From Mobula hypostoma (lineage: Eukaryota), in assembly GCF_963921235.1 (NCBI RefSeq), contig NC_086097.1, forward strand, positions 4,836,001 to 4,900,000: a stretch of 64,000 nucleotides of DNA. Direction: 5' to 3'. Below the pieces are notes generated by a model. It saw only the letters and a list, made by a program, of their open reading frames with translations. It had not been told where the DNA came from and did not search any database. Every line of letters begins with the position of its first letter. The first letter of the stretch is position 1. The position numbers were made by a program, and so were the translations under genes. Below, piece after piece: positions 1,038 to 56,280 of the stretch.

Positions 1038-1281
1038 ACACAAACGCAAGAGATTCTGCAGATGTTGGAAATCCAGAGCAACACACACTAAATATTGGAT
1101 GAACTCACAGGTCAGCCAGCATCTATAGAAATGAATAAACAGGATGTTCAGGCCAAGACCCTTCTTCGGGATCTGATGAAGCCTGATGAAGGGTTTTGGC
1201 CCGAAATGTCAACCATTTATCCATCTCCATAGATGCAGCCCGAGCTGCTGAGTTCTTCCAGTATTTTGTGTGTGTTGCTTC
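1038..1281. mobile_element. Miniature Penelope-derived hairpin element with a hammerhead-like core
   Basis: Inverted arms resembling the Penelope 3' end; CTGATGA-AGGGTTTTGGCCC-GAAA at 1183-1206; TSD AGAGCTGGCATC (1026-1037) / AGAGATGGCATC (1282-1293). Confidence 0.8.
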
Positions 1282-3120: not shown

Positions 3121-3364
3121 TATGTACTGCTGCCACAAAATGACAAATTTCACAACATACGCCAGTGACATCAGAGCTGACTCTGATTTGAGCAACTATG
3201 GAGGAAGTTACCCAAAGTATTATACAGGAGCGATAGATATCCAGAAAATACTTGATAAGTTATCAAGGTTGTCACTCTTTAATCCCTTGACTGAAATAAA
3301 CATTTTTTTTGCCATTTTCCATTGACTGTCTTTTGCAGCAAAATGATGCTCTTGTAATTTATAA

Positions 3365-3520
3365 ACAAGAGAAAGTCGGTAGATTCTGGAAATCCAGAGC
3401 AACACACAATAAATGCCGGAGGAACTCAGCAGGCCAGGCAGTATCCATGGAAATGAGTAAACAGTCAATGTTTTTGGACTATGTTTCCTTCACCGGGACT
3501 GAGAAGGAAAGGGAAAGATA
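3365..3520 (-). mobile_element. Penelope-like 3' terminal fragment (old family)
   Basis: GGAAATCCAGAGCAACACAC...GGAGGAACTCAGCAGGCCAGGCAG, matching the arms of the element at 1038-1281. Confidence 0.65.
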
Positions 3521-11960: not shown

Positions 11961-12553
11961 ATCTTTGTAAATCAGATGCTTGAATAAGTAGGTACACAGT
12001 AGCTTTGCCCTTGACTTACCTTAATTTACCTGACACCAAAACCAGTTTGTACTGTCCCAACATATCAATGCAGCCGCAAAGAAGGCAAGACAGTAGCTAT
12101 ATTTCATTAGGAGTTAGAGGGGATTTAGTTTGTCAACTTCTGTATGTACTGTGGAAAGCACGCTGACAAGCTGCATCACTGTCTGGTATGGGGCGGGGGG
12201 CTACTGCACAGGACTGAGAGAAGCTAGAGAAAGTTGTAAAATTAGTCAGCTCCATCTTGGGTACTGGCCTCTGTCATATCAGAAACATCTTCAAGGAGTG
12301 GTGTCTCAGAAAGGTGGTGTCCATTATTGAGGACCCCTATTACCCAGGGCATGCCCTTTCCTCCTTGTTACCATCAGGAAGGAGATTCAGCAGCCTCAGC
12401 AATTCAGGAACAGCTTCTTCTCCACCATCTGATTCCTAGATGGACATTGAACCCATGAATACTACCTCACTTTTTGTTTAATATATATTATTTCTGTTTT
12501 TGCACTATTCTAATCTATTCAATATACATACACACATATATATACTTACTGTA

Positions 12554-12757
12554 AACAACAGGAATTCTGCAGATGCTGGAATTTCATGCAATACACATCA
12601 AAGTTGCTGGTGAACGCAGCAGGCCAGGCAGCATCTCTAGGAAGAGGTGCAGTTGACGTTTCGGGCCGAGACCCTTCGTCAGGACTAACTGAAACGTCGA
12701 CTGTACCTCTTCCTAGAGCTGCTGCCTGGCCTGCTGCGTTCACCAGCAACTTTTTTC
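12554..12757. mobile_element. Miniature Penelope hairpin element (young family)
   Basis: Inverted arms 12601-12662 and 12691-12752, nearly identical to the termini of 45173-49070; perfect 15-bp TSD TATATACTTACTGTA (12539-12553, 12758-12772). Confidence 0.92.
12651..12690 (-). ncRNA. Minimal type I hammerhead ribozyme
   Basis: Minus strand reads TAGTC-CTGACGA-AGGGTCTCGGCCC-GAAA-CGTC-AACT. Confidence 0.7.
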
Positions 12758-12919
12758 TATATACTTACTGTAGCTGATTTACTTGGTTATTTATTTATTT
12801 TTTCTTTCTATATTATTATGTATTGTATTGAACTGCTGCTGTTAAATGAACAAATTTCACAACTCATAGCGGTGATAATAAACCTGATTGTGATCCTGTT
12901 GTTGCTGTTGCAACAATGA

Positions 12920-21226: not shown

Positions 21227-21719
21227 AGGGGTGGGTGCTGAGATAAGAAACTGGGAGGTGAGAGGAAGAAAAGGAGAGGGAGGAATCTGATAGAGAGGAG
21301 AGTGGACCATGGAAGAAAGGGATGGAGGAGGGGCACTGGGGGAGGTGATAGCTAAGTGAGGAGAAGAGGTAAAAGGCTAGAGTGCGACTTGAACAGGAGG
21401 GAAAGGAGAGGGGGAAAATTGCCAGACATGGGGAAATCGATGTACATGACATCATGTTGGAGGTTACCTAGACTCTTATTTTATCACCCCACCCCCACCG
21501 ATCTGGCTTCACCTATCACTTTCTAGCTTGTCCTCTTCCCCCTCCTCCCACTTTTTTATTCAGGCATCATCCCCCTTCCTTTCCCGCTCTGAAGAAGGAT
21601 CTCGGCCTGAAACGTTGACTGTTTATTCATTTCCCTAGATGCTGCCTGACCTGCTGAGTTCCTCCAGCATGTTTTGTGTGTTGCTCTGGATTTCCGGCAT
21701 CTTCAGATTCTCTCCTATT
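21227..21719. mobile_element. Old Penelope insertion with inverted arms
   Basis: Minus arm to about 21475, then a plus arm with CTGAAGAAGGATCTCGGCCTGAAACGTTGACT and the terminal tail; TSD TACACTTGGGA (21216-21226) / TACACCTGGGA (21720-21730). Confidence 0.75.
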
Positions 21720-31000: not shown

Positions 31001-31388
31001 GCTACACAAGCTGTGGTCTGCCAGTCAGGTAGTCCATTATCCAGGATACAATGGAAGTGCCAACCAGCATTGAATGGCGCAGATCCCTCAGCAATGAGGG
31101 CTGTGTGGTATTGAAGGCACTTGAGAAATCAAAAAACATGATCCTCACAGTGCTGCTCTGCTTATCCAAATGGGAGTAGGCTCTGTATATATCCTGTGCC
31201 ATCCAAATTGCTTCTAGAAATTCCAGCCATTGCTGCTCTGCTGTCATCCCTGCCAGTGTTCTTTTCCAATCAATTCTGGCCAACTCCTCTCTCTTCCTCT
31301 GTAATTCCCTTTACTCCACTGTAATACTGATACATCTGACTTTAGCTTCTCCTTCTCAAATTACAGGGTGAATTCAATCATATTATGG
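28020..31388 (-). mobile_element. Decayed CR1 LINE interrupted by Rex1 (30030-31185) and cut off at a Penelope copy
   Basis: ORF 28338-28733 (RSHLEYC, RGDLIET), ORF 29085-29417 (DFQKAFDKVP) and IDWKRTL at 31283; further endonuclease-like remnant at about 32130-32320. Confidence 0.88.
30030..31185 (-). mobile_element. Rex1/Babar LINE, 5'-truncated
   Basis: [35 protein letters not shown]; (TATC)n tail. Confidence 0.88.
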
Positions 31389-31975
31389 CAACACACATCA
31401 AAGTTGCTGGTGAACGCAGCAGGCCAGGCAGCATCTCTAGGAAGACGTTTCAGGCTGAGACCCTTCGTCAGGACTAATTGAAGGAAGAGTGAGTAAGGGA
31501 TTTGAAAGTTGGAGGGGGAGGGGGAGATCCAAAATGATAGGAGAAGACAGGAGGGGGAGGGATAGAGCCAAGAGCTGGACAGGTGATAGGCAAAAAGGGA
31601 TACGAGAGGATCACGGGACAGGAGGTCCGGGAAGAAAGACAAGGGGGGGGGACCCAGAGGATGGGCAAGGGGTATATTCAGAGGGACAGAGGGAGAAAAA
31701 GGAGAGTGAGAGAAAGAATGTGTGTATAAAAATGAGTAACAGATGGGGTACGAGGGGGAGGTGGGGCCTTAGCGGAAGTTAGAGAAGTCAATGTTCATGC
31801 CATCAGGTTGGAGGCTACCCAGACGGAATATAAGGTGTTGTTCCTCCAACCTAAGTGTGGCTTCATCTTTACAGTAGAGGAGGCCGTGGATAGACATGTC
31901 AGAATGGGAATGGGATGTAGAATTAAAATGTGTGTCTATCCACGGCCTCCTCTACTGTACCACATCCCATTTATC
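31389..31975 (-). mobile_element. Young Penelope 3' fragment with a short internal inversion
   Basis: Nearly identical to the reverse complement of 48520-49070; flips to plus at about 31933 (TGTCTATCCACGGCCTCCTCTACTG). Confidence 0.88.
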
Positions 31976-38369: not shown

Positions 38370-38915
38370 CAGAGGAAAAAGGAGAGAGAAAAAAATTAAT
38401 GATAATAATAAATAAATAAATAACGGATGGGCTCCTCTACTGTCAAGATGAAGCTACACTCAGATTGGAGGAACAACACCTTATGGGTGACCTCCAACCT
38501 GACGGCATGAACATTGACTTAAACTTCCGTTAACACCCCACCTCCCCTTCGTACCCCATCCATTTTTTCTCTCTCTCTCCTTTTTCTCCCTCTGTCCCTC
38601 TGACTATACCCCTTGCCCATCCTCTGGGTTTTTTCCCTCCTCCCCCTTTTCCTTCTCCCTGGGCCTCCTGTCCCATGATCCTCTCATATCCCTTTTGCCA
38701 ATCACCTGTCCAGCTCTTGGCTCCATCCCTCCCCCTCCTGTCTTCTCCCATCATTTTGGATCTCCCCCTCCCCCTCCCACTTTCAAATCTCTTACTCACT
38801 CTTCCTTCAGTTAGTCCTGACGAAGAGTCTTGGCCCGAAACGTCGACTGTACCTCTTCCTAGAGATACTGCACGGCCTGCTGCGTTCACCAGTAATTTTT
38901 ATGTGTGTTGCTTGA
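38370..38915 (+). mobile_element. Young Penelope 3' fragment with a short inverted leader
   Basis: GIY-YIG C-terminal remnant (GGAGGAACAACACCTT) and a 3' UTR matching 48570-49070. Confidence 0.85.
38811..38849 (+). ncRNA. Minimal type I hammerhead ribozyme
   Basis: TAGTC-CTGACGA(38817-38823)-AGAGTCTTGGCCC-GAAA-CGTC|GACTG; predicted cleavage after 38844. Confidence 0.7.
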
Positions 38916-39239: not shown

Positions 39240-39745
39240 GATCTTGGCCCAAAATGCCGACTGTTTTGTTCATTTCCATAGATGCCGCCCGACCCACGGT
39301 GTTCCCTGAGCATTTCGTGTGAGTTGCTCTGGATTTCCAGCATCTGCAGAATCTCTTGTGTTTATGATTTGCTGCTCCATTGTGAAGTCTTGTTGAGGGA
39401 TGCCGACCCTGAAGAAGTTAAATCTTCTCTTCAACATGAGTTCAGTGAGACCCTCACTCATTGCTCACTCGCTGTGACCTTTGCTGCCTCTAACTCTTTG
39501 ACCCTGTACTCACCCAGACTCATTACCATAGCCACGTGTCCTTCCAGGGAATATGATTTCACTGCCATCTTGTTCCATATGGCTTCCAGCTCCCTTCCCC
39601 CTTCCTTTCCAGTCCTAAGAAGTATTGGCCCGAAACATTGACTCTCTATTCCTTTCCATAGCTGCTGCCTGACCTGCTGAGTTCCTCCAGCATTTTGTGG
39701 GTGTTGCTCTGGATTTCCAGCATCTGCAGAATCCCTTGCGTTAAT
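39240..39745 (+). mobile_element. Two tandem old Penelope 3' tails (about 39240-39365 and 39580-39745)
   Basis: Both end in TTGCTCTGGATTTCCAGCATCTGCAGAATC. Confidence 0.7.
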
Positions 39746-44070: not shown

Positions 44071-45268
44071 TTAAGTGTAGAGTTGTATCTTTGGAGAAGC
44101 GTGCTTTACCAAGACTTGATTAAAATATACAACCAAATGCTCAGTACAAAGCAGCTTATTAACAATTATGTTGTTCTCCTTTACGCTTGCGTACTGGAAA
44201 TGACATTAAACATTTTGGAATAAGATGAAGATACACGGCAGACTTTTACTCTTCAAAAGTGTGGGGGCATTATTTTCACTGGACGTCCTTGAATTATTAT
44301 GGCAGATGACTGATGCAGTTTTTCTTTGCACAAGCATAGCTCTGTGGACGAGAACGATAATGATGTGGGCAGCTTACAAAAATGACACTGGCTGAGAGGA
44401 CAAATGGGTGGAAAATGGATGTAATGACTCTAAAGGGCCTCTGCGAGCTACAGCTGTTCATGTTACATTATGATAATAGCAGTATATTACATAACCATCT
44501 TTGGCTCTGTTTCTCAAATATATTCAGAGTTTATAGACTGATATGAATTGAGAACTGCTGTTTCTGCAGTTTGTTTGAAAGTCAGAAGCTCCTATAATTT
44601 AGGTCTTAAACCTGGAGGCTGCCAGCTACATCAATAAAGTTTGCAGAAAACAGCACAATAAAATAAATTCTTCAATTTCAATACATTAAATTGATATTGA
44701 TTTTAGGATCCAGCTACTTATTTACATACCCACCAAATGATCTATAGTTCCTCGAAAAATTCTCTACCCAAGAGGGCTGAGGAGATTCAGTCACTAAGTA
44801 TATTCAAGAAGGAGACAGTTTTTAAAATGTGTTTTTATTTTTTATTTAGAGAAGTGGTGTGGAACGGATTCTTCTGGCTCACCAACCTCCTATCTGGGTG
44901 AGGTGAGGGGTCAGAGCCTTTGCTGGTCAGAACTGACCATGGATTTTGTGTCTAAGCTGTCTAGATATGCAAGCCTGGGCAGTGTGATACGGAGAGAAAG
45001 TTGTTGCTCAGGTAGCAAGCTCCCCGTTCTCCACGCATCTGATGAACCCAAAGGAATGGCAGAGACTGGCACAGTTTGGTACCAGCGGCGTTGCAGGAGT
45101 TGCCAGTCAGTTGAACCCTCTATTTAACCCTGGCCTAATTACAGGACAACTTATAATGGCTGTATAAAGGTAAACAACAGGAATTCTGCAGATGCTGGAA
45201 ACTCAAGCAACATACATCAAAGTTGCTGGTGAACGCAGCAGGCCAGGCAGCATCTCTAGGAAGAGGTG

Positions 45269-45306
45269 CAGTCGACGTTTCAGGCCGAGACCCTTCGTCA
45301 GGACTA
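45269..45306 (-). ncRNA. Minimal type I hammerhead ribozyme, left arm
   Basis: Minus strand reads TAGTC-CTGACGA-AGGGTCTCGGCCT-GAAA-CGTC|GACTG. Confidence 0.78.
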
Positions 45307-45600
45307 ACTGAAGGAAGAGTGAGTAAGAGATTTGAAAGTTGGAGGGGGAGGGGGAGATCCAAAATGATAGGAGAAGACAGGAGAGGAAGGGATGGAGCCA
45401 AGAGCTGGACAGGTGATTGGCAAAAGGGATATGAGAGGATCATGGGACGGGAGGTCCAGGAAGAAAGACAAGGTGGGGGGGGGACCCAGAGGATGGGCAA
45501 GAGGTATATTCTGAGGGACAGAGGGAGAAAAAGGAGAGTGAGAGAAAGAATCTGTGTATAAAAATAAGTAACAGATGGGGTACGAGGGGAAGGGGGGGCA

Positions 45601-47097
45601 TTAGCGGAAGTTAGAGAAGTCGATGTTCATGTCATCAGGTTGGAGGCTACCCAGACAGAATATAAGGTGTTGTTCCTCCAACCTGAGCGTGGCTTCATCT
45701 TTACAGTAGAGGAGGCCGTGGATAGACATGTCAGAATGGGAATGGGATGTGGAATTAAAATGTGTGGCCACTGGGAGATCCTGCTTTCTCTGGCGGACAG
45801 AGCGTAGGTGTTCAGCAAAATGATCTCCCAGTCTGCGTCGGGTCTCGCCAATATATAGAAGGCCACATCGGGAGCAGCAGACGCAGTATATCACCCCAGC
45901 CGACTCACAGGTGAAGTGTCGCCTCACCTGGAAGGACTGTCTGGGGCCCTGAATGGTGGTAAGGGAGGAAGTGTAAGGGCACGTGTAGCACTTGTTCCGC
46001 TTACACGGATAAGTGCCAGGAGGGAGATCAGTGGGGAGGGATGGGGGGGACGAATGGATAAGGGAGTCGCGTAGGGAGCGATTCCTGTGGAAAGCAGAGG
46101 GGGGGGGAGGGAAAGATGTGCTTAGTGCTGAGATCCCGTTGGAGGTGGCGGAAGTTACGGAGAATAATATGTTGGACCTGGAGGCTGGTGGGGCGTTAGG
46201 TGAGGACCAGGGGAACCCTATTCCTAGTGGGGTGGCGGGAGGATGGAGTGAGAGCAGGTGTGCGTGAAATGGGGGAGATGCATTGGAGAGCAGAGTTGAT
46301 AGTGGAGGAAGGGAAGCCCCTTTGTTTAAAAAAGGAGGACATCTCCCTCGTCCTAGAATGAAAAGCCTCATCCTGAGAGCAGATGCGGCGGAGACGGAGG
46401 AATTGCGAGAAGGGAATGGCGTTTTTGCAAGAGACAGAGTGAGAAGAGGAATAGTCCAGATAGCTGTGAGAGTCAGTAGGCTTATAGTAGACATCAGTGG
46501 ATAAGCTGTCTCCAGAGACAGAGACAGAAAGATCTAGAAAGGGGAGGGAGGTGTCGGAAATGGACCAGGTAAACTTGAGGGCAGGGTGAAAGTTGGAGGC
46601 AAAGTTAATAAAGTCAACGAGTTCTGCATGCGTGCAGGAAGCAGCGCCAATGCAGTCGTCGATGTAGCGAAGGAAAAGTGGGGGACAGATACCAGAATAG
46701 GCACGGAACATAGATTGTTCCACAAACCCAACAAAAAGGCAGGCATAGCTAGGACCCATACGGGTGCCCATAGCTACACCTTTAGTTTGGAGGAAGTGGG
46801 AGGAGCCAAAGGAGAAATTATTAAGTGTAAGGACTAATTCCACTAGACGGAGCAGAGTGGTGGTAGAGGGGAACTGATTAGGTCTGGAATCCAAAAAGAA
46901 GCGGAGAGCTTTGAGACCTTCCTGATGGGGGATGGAAGTATATAGGGATGGGCATTCATGGTGAAAATAAAGCGGTGGGGGCCAGGGAACTTAAAATCAT
47001 CGAAAAGTTTAAGAGCGTGAGAAGTGTCACGAACATAGGTCGGAAGGGATTGAACAAGGGGGGATAAAACCATGTCGAGGTATGCAGAAACGAGTTC
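45601..47097 (-). pseudogene. Penelope RT + GIY-YIG endonuclease, left arm
   Basis: QTKGVAMG, RYIDD, FLDL, YYKPT, linker CKRNKCYTC, GVIY...LYIGET, EH, HF, GMN-like end; frameshifts near 46200 and 46950. Confidence 0.92.
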
Positions 47098-48679
47098 CCA
47101 CACCTCAGACTTCCCGTTTCTACCTCCTACCCAAGATCCACAAACCTGCCTGTCCTGGCCGACCTATTATCTCAGCTTGCTCCTGCCCCACCGAACTCAT
47201 TTCTGCATACCGCAACACGGTTTTATACCTCTTGTTCAATCCCTTCCTACCTATGTTCATGACACTTCTCACGCTCTTAAACTTTTCGATGATTTTAAGT
47301 TCCCTGGCCCCCACCGCTTTATTTTCACCATGTATGTCCAGTCCTTATATACTTCCATCCCCCATCAGGAAGGTCTCAAAGTTCTGCGCTTCTTTTTGTA
47401 ATCCAGACCTAATCAGTTCCCCTCTACCACCACTCTGCTCCGTCTAGCGGAATTAGTCCTTACTCTTAATAATTTCTCCTTTGGCTCCTCCCACTTCCTC
47501 CAAACTAAAGGTGTAGCTATGGGCACCCGTAAGGGTCCTAGCTATGCCTGCCTTTTTGTTGGGTTTATGGAACAATCTATGTTCCGTGCCTATTCTGGTA
47601 TCTGTCCCCCACTTTTCCTTCGCTACATTGACGACTGCATTGGCGCTGCTTCCTGCACGCATGCAGAGCTCGTTGACTTTATTAACTTTGCCTCCAACTT
47701 TCACCCTGCCCTCAAGTTTACCTGGTCCATTTCCGACACCTCCCTCCCCTTTCTAGATCTTTCTGTCTCTGGAGACAGCTTATCCACTGATGTCTACTAT
47801 AAGCCTACTGACTCTCACAGCTACCTGGACTATTCCTCTTCTCACCCTGTCACTTGCAAAAACGCCATCCCCTTCTCGCAATTCCTCCATCTCCGCCGCA
47901 TCTGCTCTCAGGATGAGGCTTTTCATTCTAGGACGAGGGAGATGTCCTCCTTTTTTAAACAAAGGGGCTTCCCTTCCTCCACTATCAACTCTGCTCTCCA
48001 ATGCATCTCCCCCTATTCACGCACACCTGCTCTCACTCCATCCTCCCGCCACCCCACTAGGAATAGGGTTCCCCAGGTCCTCACCTACCACCCCACCAGC
48101 CTCCGGGTCCAACATATTATTCTCCGTAACTTCCGCCACCTCCAATGGGATCCCAGCACTAAGCACATCTTTCCCTCCCCCCCCGCTTTCCGCAGGGATT
48201 GCTCCCTACGTGACTCCCTTGTCCATTCGTCCCCCCCATCCCTCCCCACTGATCTCCCTCCTGGCATTTATCCGTGTAAGCGGAACAAGTGCTACACATG
48301 CCCTTACACTTCCTCCCTTACCACCATTCAGGGCCCCAGACAGTCCTTCCAGGTGAGGCGACACTTCACCTGTGAGTCGGCTGGGGTGATATACTGCGTC
48401 CGGTGCTCCTGATGTGGCCTTCTATATATTGGCGAGACCCGACGCAGACTGGGAGACCGCTTTTCTGAACACCTACGCTCTGTCCGCCAGAGAAAGCAGG
48501 ATCTCCCAGTGGCCACACATTTTAATTCCACATCCCATTCCCATTCTGACATGTCTATCCACGGCCTCCTCTACTGTAAAGATGAAGCCACGCTCCGGTT
48601 GGAGGAACAACACCTTATATTCCGTCTGGGTAGCCTCCAACCTGATGGCATGAACATCGACTTCTCTAACTTCCGCTAG
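47098..48679 (+). pseudogene. Penelope RT + GIY-YIG endonuclease, right arm
   Basis: FYLLPKIHK, GRPIIS, SLYTSIP, GVAMG, RYIDD, CKRNKCYTC, GVIY...YIGET; frameshift near 47228 and stops at 47399 and 48410. Confidence 0.92.
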
Positions 48680-48971
48680 GCCCCACCTCCCCCTCGTACC
48701 CCAGCTGTTACTCATTTTTATGCACACATTCTTTCTCTCACTCTCCTTTTTCTCCCTCTGTCCCTCTGAATATACCTCTTGCCCATCCTCTGGGTCACCC
48801 CCCCCCCCGTCTTTCTTCCCGGACCTCCTGTCCCATGATCCTCTCGTATCCCCTTTTGCCTATCACCTGTCCAGCTCTCGGCTCTATCCCTCCCCCTCCT
48901 GTCTTCTCCTATCATTTTGGATCTCCCCCTCCCCCTCCAACTTTCAAATCCCTTACTCACTCTTCCTTCAG

Positions 48972-49010
48972 TTAGCCCTGACGAAGGGTCTCTTCCTGAA
49001 ACGTCGACTG
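48972..49010 (+). ncRNA. Minimal type I hammerhead ribozyme, right arm (one stem I mismatch)
   Basis: TAGCC-CTGACGA(48978-48984)-AGGGTCTCTTCCT-GAAA-CGTC|GACTG. Confidence 0.7.
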
Positions 49011-49469
49011 CACCTCTTCCTAGAGATGCTGTCTGGCCTGCTGCGTTCACCAGCAACTTTGATGTGTGTTGCTGTATAAAGGTACTGTCTTTGGACTGTG
49101 GGAGGAAAACCAAACACCAGGAAGAAACACACGTGGTCAAGAGTACGTACAAACTCATTACAGAGGCTGCTCGACTTGAAGTCTGAACTCCAATGCCCGG
49201 AGCTGTAAAGCGTCATGCTGACTACTATGCTACCACAGCCTATACATTTATACAGAGAATCAAAGAACATACCCAAGTCTCTATGGGACATTAGGAAAGA
49301 GATTGCTGGGGCATTGATAAGGATCTTTTGCACCTTCCCTGGCCACAAGAGTGCTCCCAAAGGATTGGAGGATGGCAAATGTTGTTCTATTGTTAAGAGG
49401 TAGTCAGGGTAATCTTGGGGATTATGAACCAGTGAGTCTTACTTCAGTGGAATCATCTGGCAGGACAGA

Positions 49470-51799: not shown

Positions 51800-52585
51800 G
51801 GAGGAAGTACAAGCTGGCAGGTGATAGGTGAATCCAGGTGAGGGTAAGGTGCGTGAGTGGGGGAGGGGAATGAATTAAGGAGCTGGGAAATGATAGATGA
51901 AAGATGTAATGGTCTGAAGAAGATGGAATCTGATCAATGAGGAGAGAGGACCATGGAGGAACAAAATGAAAGTGATGGGCAGGTGAGGAGAAGAGAGGAG
52001 TTAAGAGGGGGAAATAGACTGGGGAATTAAAAAGGAGAGAAGGGGAAGGGAACAAATTACTAGAACTTAGAGAATTCGATTTGGAGGCCACCCAGACAAA
52101 TATAAGGTGTTACTCCTCCAACCTGAGAGTGGCCTCATTGTGGTAGCACAGGAGGCCGTGGACCAACATGTCAGAATGGGAATGTCAAGTCAAAATGAAA
52201 TGGGTGGCCGCTGGAAAACCCTGTATTTTGTGGCAGATTGAGTGAAGGTGCTGGACAAAGTGTTTCCCCAATCTGCTATACATTGAGTCTCACCAATGTA
52301 GATGTGGCCACTGGGAGCATGACCCTGACAGGGTCACAGGTGAAGTGTCACCTCACCTGGTAGGACTGTTTGTGGTGCTGAATATTGTTGATGGAGGAGG
52401 TATAGAGGCAGGTGTAGCACTTGTCTCACTTACAGGGATGTGTTGAAGGAGGAAGATCAGTGGGGAGAGATGAGTGGACCAGGGGGTCAGCTAAAGAGTG
52501 ATCCCTAAAGAAAGCAGAGAGTGGGAGGAAGGTAAAGATATAACCAATGTGGCAGGATCCCATTATGGATGGCAGAAGTTATGAA
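51800..52585 (-). mobile_element. Old Penelope GIY-YIG region fragment
   Basis: TCACAGGTGAAGTGTCACCTCACCTGG and TATAAGGTGTTACTCCTCCAACCTGAG are homologous to 45600-46160. Confidence 0.8.
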
Positions 52586-52779: not shown

Positions 52780-53580
52780 CTAAACTTGTCCAATCTCTTG
52801 TTATGACACATGTCCTTTAATCCTCAACTAATAAAGTCAAACATGCTATTTTCCTCCTTGAACACCCTATCAGCCTGTGTAGCCACTTTTAGGGAGCTCT
52901 TAACTTTGACTCAAGACCCCTCTGCGAATCAACACTGTTTAGGGTCTTTTCCTTAACAGTATACTGTCTCTTTACATTTTACTTACCAGATGCAACTCTC
53001 ACAATTGGCTGGGTTAAACTCCATCTGCCATTTCTCCACATTTTACTGCAACTGATCTATATCCCATTGTATTCTTTGCCAGTCAACTACACTATCCACA
53101 ACACCACAAATCTTGGTATAATCTGCAAATTTACTAACCCACCCATCTACATTTTCATCCAGGTCACTTACATACATCACAAACAGCAGAGATCCTAGTG
53201 CTGATCCCTGCGGAACACCACTCATCACAGACCTCCAGCTAGAATAACTCTTCCATGGGCAAGCCAGTTCTGAATCCAATGGCAATTCACTATTAATCCC
53301 ATGCATCTTAAACTTCTGTCAAACAACGTACAATGTTCTTTTTTTTACAACCTCCACAGCTCTACCTTCATTAATCACACTCATCTCCTCATCAGAAAGC
53401 AAATCAATTAAGCTAGGCTTAACTTGTGCTGCACACGTCATGTTGGCTCTTCAGAATTAGACCATGGTTTTTCTAAACACTCATAAATCCTAACCCTAAT
53501 AGTTCCCTGCAGTAATTTCCCTACCAGTTATGTGAGATTCACCGGTTCATAGTTTCCAGGATTATCCCTGGTTCCCTTCA
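52780..53580 (-). mobile_element. CR1 LINE RT fragment
   Basis: ORF 53043-53306 GVPQGSALG, KFADYTK. Confidence 0.8.
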
Positions 53581-54839: not shown

Positions 54840-56280
54840 TGACTGGTGAGTGGCTAATGTTGCACCTCTATTTAGAAAGGGAACAGGGGAAAAGCCTGGG
54901 AACTATAGACCGGTGGATCTCACTCAGTTGTAGGGAAATTGCTGGAGAAAATTCTTAGGGACGGAATGAATGAGCATTTGGAAAACATGGTCTAATTAGG
55001 GAGAGCCAACATGGCTTTGTGCATGGCAGATCGTGCCTTACCAACTTGTTTGAGTATTTTGTCAAGTTGACGAGAGAGATTGATGAGGGTAGGGCAGTGG
55101 ATGTTGTCTACATGGACTTTAGTAAGGTGTTTGACAAAGTCCCTCATGGGAGGTTAATCCAGAAGATTAAGATGTATGGATTTGCAGTGAATTAGCTATT
55201 TGGATTCAGAACTAGCTTGTCAGTAGAAGACACAGAGCAATGGTTGAAGCAACCAGTTCGAGCTGGAGGTCTGTAATTAGTGGAGTTTCACAGAGATCTG
55301 TGCTGGGACCTCTGCTGTTGTGATGTATATAAGTAACCTGGATGAAACTGTAGATGGGTGGGTTAGTAAATTTATGAATGATACCAGGATAAGTGGTGTT
55401 GTGGATAGTGTGGAAGACTAGCGGGGAATACAGCACGATATAGATCAGATGCACACATCGGCTGAGAAACGGCAGATGAAGTTTAAATCAAATCAATATG
55501 AGGTGTTGTATTAGTAGGGCAAATGCAAAAAGACAGCACACCATTAAAGGGAAGATTCTTAACAGTGCTGCTGAGCAGAGAGATCTTGGGTTCCAAGTTC
55601 ATGGCTCCTTGAGAGTGTCCACACTGGTTGATAAGGTGGTTAAGGCTTATGGAATGCTTGTTTTTATTAGTTAAAGCATTGAGTTCAAAAGTCAGGATGT
55701 TATGTTGCAACTTTATAAAACTCTGGTAAGGACTCATCTGGAGTATTGCATATAGTTCTGGTTGTACCACTATAGAAAAGATGTTGATACTTTGGAGAGG
55801 GTATAAAAGAGGTTTACCTGTATGTTGCCCGGATTAGAGGGCATGTGCTATCATGAGAGGCTAGATAAACTTGAGTTCTTTTCCCTGGAGCGTCAGAGGA
55901 TGAGGGCAGATCTGATAGGGGTTTACAAGATTATGAGAGGCATAGATAGAGTGGGTCAAGAGTATCTGTTCCCGGGGTTGAAATGTCTAATACCAGAGGG
56001 CTTGCATTGAAGGTGAGAGGGGGTAGGCTCAAGTGGGATGTGAGGGGTAAGTTTTTTACTTGGAGAGTCATGGATGCCTGGAATGCACTGGCTGACATGG
56101 TGGTGGGGGTAAATATATTGAAGGCATTTAAGAGACGTTTAGATAGGCACATGGGTGTGAGGAAGATGGAGGGATATGGACATGGCGTAAGTAGGAGGGA
56201 TTAATGTTTGGGTGTTTTTGATTTGCTTTTCAACTGGTTCGGCACAGCATTGTGAGGTGAGTGGCCAGTACTCTTCTATG
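54840..56280 (+). mobile_element. CR1 LINE RT and 3' fragment
   Basis: GGGAACTATAGACCGGTG (GNYRPV), GACTTTAGTAAGGTGTTTGAC (DFSKVFD), RADLIGVYKIMRG. Confidence 0.88.

What the first reader, a model, noticed from the sequence alone, without database searches (positions are those of the whole stretch)
45301..48960. The two arms look like different subfamilies, suggesting two RNA templates in one insertion
Seen: at several 3' UTR sites the left arm reads TAAGAGATTT, GATGGAGCC, GGTGATTGGC and CAAAAGGGATATGAG, which match the dispersed copy at about 38530-38915. The right arm (reverse-complemented) reads TAAGGGATTT, GATAGAGCC, GGTGATAGGC and a one-base-longer ...GGGATACGAG, which match the copy at 31389-31930. 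Random decay after insertion should not reproduce variants found in independent copies. Inference: the arms were copied from two different source RNAs, or from a source palindrome whose arms had already diverged. The arm differences also argue against a simple assembly fold-back.
Basis: partly seen in the sequence, partly recalled or inferred. Interest (0 to 1): 0.85.

Follow-up and report, generated by a model that had tools for sequence, protein, structure and literature searches.

The report
Head-to-head Penelope-like retrotransposon pair
This is an ordinary double insertion of a Penelope-like retrotransposon in a ray genome: two truncated copies lie head to head, they come from one source lineage, and only a few sites hint that their two RNA templates were not identical.

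Summary
All eight quoted motifs occur exactly as described.

The feature is a pair of 5'-truncated Penelope-like element (PLE) copies lying head to head and bounded by a target-site duplication (TSD). Left arm: 45173-47097. Right arm: 47093-49073. TSD: GTATAAAGGTA.

Only the left arm has the 33-nt "tail". Only the right arm has about 100 nt of extra reverse transcriptase (RT) coding sequence at the centre. A 5-nt overlap joins the arms. This matches the published PLE insertion form and in-vitro priming on both DNA strands.

"Different subfamilies" does not hold for whole arms:
- Both arms share departures that are rare in the family (0.1-1.8% of contig depth) at four coding sites. Three of them are seen in none of 11-12 homologues.
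- The arms are sisters in a protein tree.
- They carry equal private loads (10 versus 11 amino-acid changes).
- Their 4.0% divergence is evenly spread.

Five non-CpG sites and one indel do place the arms on different common family haplotypes. For the three testable against both other copies, chance is unlikely (P about 0.02). I cannot tell non-identical templates from later gene conversion without the genome. This is a known kind of structure, of modest interest.

The parts
45162..45172 (.). Left target-site duplication GTATAAAGGTA. The CT at 45160-45161 may also belong to it.
   Evidence: The same 11 nt abut both outer ends of the pair.
45173..45205 (-). 33-nt 'tail', the distal 3' extension of the element. 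It is present on the left arm only.
   Evidence: the left arm and copy c12a carry it, starting at the same base (AACAACAGG on the + strand). The right arm and c31 end before it. table 7: family contigs continue past 49073 with this sequence.
45173..47097 (-). Left arm: a 5'-truncated PLE copy, antisense on the + strand. It holds RT C-terminal part, linker, GIY-YIG endonuclease, 3' region and tail.
   Evidence: It has frameshifts at 46949 (-1) and 46096-46099 (+4), an in-frame 6-nt insert at 46523-46528, and a stop at the codon that pairs with 48086.
47093..47097 (.). 5-nt overlap (AGTTC) shared by the inner ends of both arms.
   Evidence: Read from the sequence. Family contigs diverge upstream of 47093 (table 7). 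RT homology starts at 47094.
47093..49073 (+). Right arm: a 5'-truncated PLE copy in sense orientation, without the tail.
   Evidence: It has stops at 47399-47401 and 48410-48412. The open reading frame ends at 48679.
47098..47192 (+). Central segment present only in the right arm. It encodes ...VPTPQTSRFYLLPKIHKPACPGRPIISACSCPT...
   Evidence: blastx match to RT homologues (P0017 76%, 7 others 62-77%). table 2: family-level depth across it.
48680..49073 (+). Right-arm 3' untranslated region. It holds the arm differences at family-polymorphic sites: 48713, 48820*, 48846*, 48850 (indel), 48861, 48885 and 48951 (* = CpG). Left-arm counterparts are 45566, 45458, 45432, 45429/30, 45418, 45394 and 45328.
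48974..49009 (+). Minimal hammerhead-like motif: AG(C/T)C CUGACGA A GGGUCUC..CCU GAAAC GUC | GACU. The left-arm counterpart is 45270-45305. The right-arm copy carries private changes at 48976 and 48993-48994.
   Evidence: Read by eye against the descriptor in PMC4209133. No Rfam hammerhead hit.
49074..49084 (.). Right target-site duplication GTATAAAGGTA.
47960..48156 (+). Stretch holding four states shared by both arms but rare in the family: 47960 C, 47999 C, 48026 C and 48156 G.
   Evidence: table 3: the other letter makes up 98.2-99.9% of depth in X1. Q, P and S in both arms against K, S and T in homologues.

Best explanation
The feature is one old insertion of a Penelope-like element (PLE) in a myliobatiform-ray genome, in the known head-to-head form.

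Inferred steps of the insertion:
- The element's endonuclease cut both target strands, which left the 11-13 bp TSD.
- Reverse transcription was primed on both strands. On the left it started at the distal start site, so that arm carries the 33-nt tail. On the right it started at the proximal site, so that arm has no tail.
- The two cDNAs grew to nearly the same length, about 1.93 and 1.98 kb.
- Their 3' ends paired over 5 nt (AGTTC), and each cDNA then templated the other's second strand.

Shown:
- Both template copies came from one source lineage, because the arms share rare coding changes.
- Most of the 4.0% arm divergence looks like later, roughly equal decay of both arms.

Open:
- Five non-CpG sites and one indel put the right arm on a younger, abundant family haplotype and the left arm on an older one.
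- These could come from non-identical templates or template switching at insertion (about 35%). They could instead come from later ectopic gene conversion or recurrent mutation (about 50%).
For: Identity of the element:
- The nearest proteins are PLE-type RT/GIY-YIG fragments from Mobula hypostoma (87-92% identity) and Hypanus sabinus.
- Both arms contain YIDD and GIY..CxxC..YIG motifs.

Anatomy:
- There is a TSD, the tail is on one arm only, and there is a right-arm-only centre.
- The left arm and c12a start at the same tail base. The right arm and c31 end at the same proximal site.
- Family contigs run on past 49073 with tail sequence (table 7).
- A second TSD-bounded mini pair at 12554-12753 has the same design. 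It has a tail on one arm, a 5-nt overlap CTGAA and a 15-bp TSD.

Published match:
- PMC8557442 and PMC3846280 (passages read) describe an inverted 5'-truncated copy and a 30-40 bp tail at one end.
- PMC11167929 (parts 1-2 of 4 read) reports that a PLE protein cleaves and extends both strands from two adjacent start sites that delimit the tail.

One source lineage:
- Four shared rare states; three of them are absent from the 11-12 homologues examined.
- The arms are sisters with support 90/88 and near-equal branch lengths of 0.029 and 0.032.
- The arms agree at the polymorphic sites 47563 and 48777.

Decay:
- 76 substitutions in 1879 sites; 23 are CpG transitions.
- pN/pS is 0.68, not different from 1 (p = 0.30).
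- Of 29 amino-acid differences, 10 are private to the right arm and 11 to the left. Six are mixed among homologues, all at CpG, and two are unassigned.
- Differences are evenly spread (dispersion index 1.29, p = 0.18).
Against: - Random decay alone does not explain three non-CpG sites that all read R=c31 / L=c38 (P = 0.019, or 0.004 with direction).
- In the 3' 530 nt the right arm is closer to the unrelated copy c31 (19/520) than to its own partner (28/533).
- At the seven sites listed as polymorphic in X1, the right arm carries the allele enriched in organism A at all 7. The left arm does so at only 2. These sites span 47345-48885, so conversion would need several tracts.
- The shared rare states could instead come from arm-to-arm conversion after insertion.
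- Allele shares are depth-weighted over collapsed contigs, with the right arm as reference. In addition, 186 rows of the table were not shown. The shares at 48820, 48846, 48861 and 48951 are therefore unknown.
- No hammerhead family of Rfam matches, and the GIY-YIG Pfam scores are below cut-off (17 against 22.6 bits).
Confidence: 0.72

Rival explanations
1. The two arms were copied from RNAs of two different subfamilies. The shared rare coding states arose later by arm-to-arm gene conversion.
For: - The right arm carries the A-enriched allele at 7 of the 7 sites listed as polymorphic in X1; the left arm does so at 2 of 7.
- Five split sites and one indel all read one way.
- Loose ends at 48856 in 40 X1 contigs link the left-arm states GCCAATCACC...CTCTTGG (table 7), so the left-arm form is a real family haplotype.
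- Three of the five shared departures (the four rare coding states plus 48592 G) lie inside long difference-free gaps.
Against: - The shared rare states at 48026 and 48156 lie 11 and 3 nt from arm differences, so arm-to-arm tracts would have to be very short or very old.
- Arm differences are not clustered.
- Private loads are equal.
- The arms are sisters in the protein tree.
- Two of the split sites are CpG and one is a homopolymer length change.
Confidence: 0.12
2. Fold-back. A single cDNA snapped back on itself and was copied into a palindrome, so the arms were identical at birth.
For: - The 5' ends of the arms lie only about 100 nt apart here, and about 35 nt apart in the mini pair.
- Copy c31 has a 24-nt inverted duplicate of its own 5' end at 31934-31957, so snap-back does occur in this family.
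- Self-priming has been proposed for PLE inverted junctions (PMC3846280, passages read).
Against: - Each arm holds element sequence that the other lacks. The tail is only on the left arm, and the 95-100 nt centre is only on the right arm and in sense orientation.
- A copy of a cDNA cannot contain what that cDNA lacks.
- Both outer ends are canonical copy termini that abut the TSD.
Confidence: 0.07
3. Retrotransposition of a read-through transcript of an older palindromic locus whose arms had already diverged.
For: It would explain diverged arms within a single TSD.
Against: - The far end of such a copy would be a random 5' truncation. Instead, the left arm ends at the exact canonical tail terminus shared with c12a.
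- The shared rare states and equal private loads fit a single birth.
Confidence: 0.04
4. Assembly or polishing artefact. The palindrome, or the common-allele look of the right arm's 3' region, was produced in silico.
For: - PLE tandem and inverted forms are known to trouble assemblies (PMC8557442, passage read).
- No listed contig spans the stretch.
Against: - The arms diverge by 4%, carry different indels, differ in length, and sit within a clean TSD.
- An X1 contig matches 49050-49386 with 0 differences (table 8).
Confidence: 0.03

Closest known systems
Head-to-head (inverted pLTR) insertions of endonuclease-containing Penelope-like elements, e.g. Pen2a_Av of Adineta vaga and Penelope/Poseidon/Naiad copies (PMC3846280, PMC8557442; passages read)
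   Same: - An inverted 5'-truncated copy lies next to a direct one.
- A TSD of about 10 bp flanks the pair.
- A 30-40 bp tail sits at one end only.
- The 3' region contains a hammerhead-like motif.
[quoted passage not shown]
   Different: - Both arms here are long (1.9 kb) and both are 5'-truncated.
- There is no full-length copy and no direct pseudo-LTR.
- The host is a ray.
- The clade (Poseidon, Neptune or other) was not determined.
In-vitro insertion by the Anolis PLE protein PAc (PMC11167929; parts 1-2 of 4 read)
   Same: - Both target strands are cut and extended.
- Two adjacent internal start sites delimit the tail. Here the two arms end 33 nt apart at what look like these two sites.
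   Different: - That work did not follow second-strand synthesis or arm joining.
- It did not ask whether the two strands use different RNA molecules.
- In PAc the start sites lie inside the open reading frame, whereas here they lie in non-coding sequence downstream of the hammerhead-like motif.
L1 twin priming (5' inversions; known to me, and seen only in the search listing)
   Same: Both target strands prime reverse transcription, and the two cDNAs are joined by microhomology.
   Different: In twin priming the inverted part comes from a different, upstream part of one RNA. Here both arms cover the same 1.9 kb and both start at the element's own 3' start sites.
Mosaic Alu elements ascribed to gene conversion or template switching (recalled; no paper read here)
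   Same: Copies carry diagnostic alleles of two subfamilies in short tracts.
   Different: That is a different element class, and it is an analogy only.

Membership tests
Penelope-like elements (endonuclease-containing) | A single open reading frame with RT followed by a C-terminal GIY-YIG endonuclease. | tested here: met
   - The order YIDD ... GIY/YIG is found in both arms.
- 672 homologues have E<=1e-20, and several of the 120 listed carry precomputed PF00078 and PF01541.
- The centre matches RT motifs of those homologues.
- The local Pfam GIY-YIG hits are below cut-off (E = 0.007, 17 against 22.6 bits), and there is no RT hit on the truncated pieces.
Penelope-like elements (endonuclease-containing) | [quoted passage not shown] | tested here: met
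   VIYCVRCS*CGLLYIGE in the right arm and VIYCVCCSRCGLLYIGE in the left arm.
Penelope-like elements (endonuclease-containing) | A hammerhead ribozyme motif in the terminal repeat region. | tested here: inconclusive
   - No Rfam hit at the gathering threshold or at E<=10.
- By eye, 48974-49009 and 45270-45305 fit the minimal descriptor of PMC4209133: CUGANGA, an extra base, helix II, GAAA, a palindromic ACGU, GUC, and a 4-bp helix I.
- Cleavage was not tested.
Penelope-like elements (endonuclease-containing) | An inverted 5'-truncated partner, a 30-40 bp tail at one end, and a TSD. | tested here: met
   There is a second example at 12554-12753.
Penelope-like elements (endonuclease-containing) | A direct pseudo-LTR formed by partial tandem copies. 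| tested here: not met
   No direct repeat of the 3' region lies at this locus. This is expected, because both arms are 5'-truncated. The papers describe the pseudo-LTR as typical of full-length copies, so its absence does not exclude membership.
L1-type twin-priming inversion | The inverted segment comes from a different, upstream part of the RNA than the direct segment. | tested here: not met
   The arms align over 1879 shared positions.
Snap-back (self-primed) cDNA palindrome | The second arm contains nothing that the first arm lacks. | tested here: not met
   The tail is only in the left arm, and the centre is only in the right arm.
   The arms are sisters, they share four rare states, and they agree at 47563 and 48777. 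They differ at common-allele sites only at 47345 and within 48713-48951. No tree with same-genome copies was possible.

The most novel reading that the evidence does not exclude
The two arms were reverse-transcribed from two non-identical RNAs held by one, probably dimeric, PLE particle. One arm may even be a template-switch chimera. If so, every head-to-head PLE insertion would be a natural record of which two source copies were expressed and packaged together. Young pairs would then show in vivo that PLE integration uses two templates.
Probability: 0.35. Interest if true: 0.55.

Novelty: new member of a known kind. Interest (0 to 1): 0.3.

Why it matters
How PLEs build their tandem and inverted insertions is still open. 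The only biochemistry I found (PMC11167929) shows that both strands are extended from two start sites, but it does not follow what happens next.

This locus, and the mini pair at 12.5 kb, add natural examples that fit that picture:
- One arm starts at each start site.
- The arms are nearly equal in length.
- A 5-nt overlap sits at the junction.

Together these suggest that the two cDNAs pair at their 3' ends and template each other. That is a modest, testable addition.

This single old pair cannot show it.

Tried and rejected
- **Whole genome:** none is held for this window.
- **Public DNA collections:** exact-pattern scans for further family copies found nothing. These covered metagenome contigs, prokaryote genome contigs and viral contigs.
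- **Earlier scan notes:** nothing by place, by sequence or by words.
- **Rfam:** no hammerhead match. The only hits were weak, unrelated ones.
- **Selection as a sign of pre-insertion divergence:** pN/pS is 0.68, not significant.
- **Clustering of arm differences as a sign of conversion tracts:** not significant.
- **GENECONV-like run test:** only left arm versus c38 stands out (6 sites, p = 0.024). This would not survive correction for six pairs.
- **Age from the sister organism:** a contig of run X5 covers 49050-49386 with 8 differences. Only 24 of its letters lie on the element side, under the tool's 31-letter rule. It is therefore only a hint that the insertion is shared with organism B.
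- **Literature:** searches of the paper library and the passages I read turned up no study comparing the two arms of PLE inverted pairs for template origin. Subscription-journal papers and supplements were not seen.
Full report
**What is there.** Positions 45173-49073 hold two copies of one retrotransposon lying head to head.
- The right arm (47093-49073, sense) encodes the C-terminal half of a reverse transcriptase (RT...RFYLLPKIHK..., YIDD). A linker and a GIY-YIG endonuclease with two cysteines between GIY and YIG follow. The frame ends at 48679, followed by a 394-nt 3' region.
- The left arm (45173-47097) is the same sequence in reverse complement.
- The nearest proteins are unnamed RT/GIY-YIG fragments of Mobula hypostoma (87-92% identity) and Hypanus sabinus. 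The host is therefore a myliobatiform ray and the element is a Penelope-like element (PLE).
- Local Pfam gives only sub-threshold GIY-YIG hits, and Rfam gives no hammerhead.
- By eye, 48974-49009 fits the minimal PLE hammerhead descriptor of PMC4209133.

**Anatomy.**
- GTATAAAGGTA flanks the pair at 45162-45172 and 49074-49084.
- The left arm carries 33 nt (45173-45205) beyond the point where the right arm stops. Copy c12a carries the same 33 nt and starts at the same base. Copy c31 stops where the right arm stops.
- Hundreds of family contigs run on past 49073 with this tail sequence (table 7).
- The right arm reaches about 100 nt further 5' than the left (47093-47192). That stretch is RT coding sequence with family-level depth.
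- The inner ends overlap by 5 nt (AGTTC, 47093-47097).
- A second, tiny pair at 12554-12753 has the same design. It has a 15-bp TSD (TATATACTTACTGTA), a tail on one arm only and a 5-nt overlap CTGAA.

**The observation.** All eight quoted motifs are found once per strand, exactly as stated. In the four-way alignment of the arms with c31 and c38 (463 ungapped columns):

| Pattern | Columns | Of which CpG |
|---|---|---|
| R=c31 / L=c38 | 5 | 2 |
| R=c38 / L=c31 | 0 | - |
| Private to the right arm | 10 | 3 |
| Private to the left arm | 9 | 1 |
| L=R against c31=c38 | 3 | 2 |
| Other | 1 | 1 |

There is also a 1-nt length change in a C/T run. Simulated random decay gives 0.60 non-CpG split sites on average. 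P(3 or more) is 0.019, or 0.004 if all must point one way. The signal is therefore real but moderate.

**Family-wide view.** No genome is held, and scans of public contigs found no copies. I therefore laid Logan contigs of four organisms on 46900-49400 at 85% likeness.
- About 269,000 pieces were laid for X1. The summed word depth at the 3' end is about 5x10^5 times that of the unique flank contig (12.9). This points to a very abundant family, but it is not a copy number.
- The depth shares below are computed with the right arm as reference.
- At 24 listed sites where the arms differ, the right-arm letter holds 13% of depth or less. At 23 of these the left arm has the majority letter. At 47333 each arm has its own letter.
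- Both alleles are common where the arms differ at these sites:

| Site | Right-arm allele | Share in X1 | Share in X5 |
|---|---|---|---|
| 47345 | T | 63% | 3% |
| 48146 (CpG) | T | 28% | 37% |
| 48713 | C | 56% | 40% |
| 48879 (CpG) | C | 41% | 2% |
| 48885 | T | 42% | 18% |

- The arms agree at the polymorphic sites 47563 (G, 51%) and 48777 (T, 39%).
- The left arm's 1-nt deletion at 48850 holds 4% of depth in X1.
- 186 rows were not shown, so the shares at 48820, 48846, 48861 and 48951 are unknown.

**Are the arms sisters?** Yes, in the coding part.
- Both arms carry C, C, C and G at 47960, 47999, 48026 and 48156. The family has another letter at 98.8%, 99.9%, 99.4% and 98.2% of depth in X1.
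- Three of these are amino-acid changes (K>Q, S>P, T>S) seen in none of the 11-12 homologues covering them.
- If the arms departed from the majority independently at 2-3% per arm, four such coincidences have P of about 1e-4 to 3e-3.
- In a protein tree with 15 ray and shark homologues the arms are sisters (support 90/88) with branch lengths of 0.029 and 0.032. Those homologues come from other species, so the contig data carry the weight here.

**Nature of the divergence.**
- There are 76 substitutions in 1879 shared positions (4.0%) plus 7 indel events. The substitutions are 23 CpG transitions, 28 other transitions and 25 transversions.
- pN/pS is 0.68 (p = 0.30).
- Of 29 amino-acid differences, 10 are private to the right arm and 11 to the left. 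Six are mixed among homologues, all at CpG. Two cannot be assigned.
- The differences are evenly spread (dispersion index 1.29, p = 0.18).
- All of this fits two copies of the same age decaying independently.

**Mechanism.** Each arm holds element sequence that the other lacks, and both outer ends are canonical copy termini abutting the TSD. A single cDNA folding back, or a re-copied older palindrome, therefore does not fit.

The structure matches the published PLE form: an inverted 5'-truncated partner and a 30-40 bp tail at one end (PMC8557442, PMC3846280, passages read). It also matches the in-vitro finding that a PLE protein cuts and extends both strands from two adjacent start sites that delimit the tail (PMC11167929, parts 1-2 of 4 read).

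My inference is that the two cDNAs, grown for a similar time, paired at their 3' ends over 5 nt and then copied each other.

**The open point.** Five non-CpG sites (47345, 48713, 48861, 48885, 48951) and one indel put the right arm on a younger, abundant haplotype and the left arm on an older one.

Arguments for non-identical templates:
- All these sites point the same way.
- They span 1.6 kb.
- They are interleaved with private changes.

Arguments for later conversion or recurrent change:
- The arms share a source lineage.
- The left-arm/c38 match is a short run (48835-48885, p = 0.024 uncorrected).
- The right-arm alleles at 47345 and 48879 are near-absent in organism B. A weak hint, a contig with only 24 letters on the element side, suggests that the insertion is shared with B.

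I put non-identical templates at about 35% and later change at about 50%.

**Verdict.** This is a known kind of structure in a new host family. "Two templates" is likely as a mechanism but is already implied by published biochemistry. "Two subfamilies" fails for the arms as wholes.

Noticed in passing
window 12539-12772: A second TSD-bounded head-to-head pair of the same family, cut down to its 3' ends. The antisense arm (12554 to about 12693) has the tail. The sense arm (about 12689 to 12753) ends 20 nt short of the right arm's terminus and is followed by a TTTC filler. The TSD is the 15-bp TATATACTTACTGTA, and the junction overlap is the 5-nt CTGAA. Its arms differ at 3 of about 60 positions, and one of those states (TGTACC) is shared with c38.
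   Followed up: partly
window 31870-31957: Copy c31 (31388-31933, antisense, no tail) is followed by a 24-nt inverted duplicate of its own 5' end (31934-31957, about 40-nt loop). This looks like a snap-back junction, so self-priming seems to occur in this family as well.
   Followed up: partly
window 52098-52515 (-): A fragment of a second, more distant PLE family. It is 57-61% identical at protein level to the endonuclease part of the right arm, and no inverted partner was seen.
   Followed up: partly
window 53014-53244 and 55257-55486: An unrelated inverted repeat of about 230 nt, 80% complementary, with arms 2 kb apart.
   Followed up: no
window 1053-1171, 3362-3445, 21589-21707, 39280-39364, 39611-39736: Short stretches 74-78% identical to the hammerhead-plus-tail end of the element (45170-45305). 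They may be ends of other PLE families or non-autonomous elements sharing that module.
   Followed up: no
window 47345, 48704, 48879 (contig runs X1 versus X5): The right-arm alleles at these sites hold 63%, 13% and 41% of family depth in organism A but only 3%, 2% and 2% in organism B. Relative depth in the RT region is also several times higher in A. This suggests a large lineage-specific burst of one subfamily. The figures are depth-weighted contig data, not copy counts.
   Followed up: partly
window 48976, 48993-48994: The right arm's hammerhead-like motif carries private changes in helix I and helix II, whereas the left arm keeps the family form.
   Followed up: no
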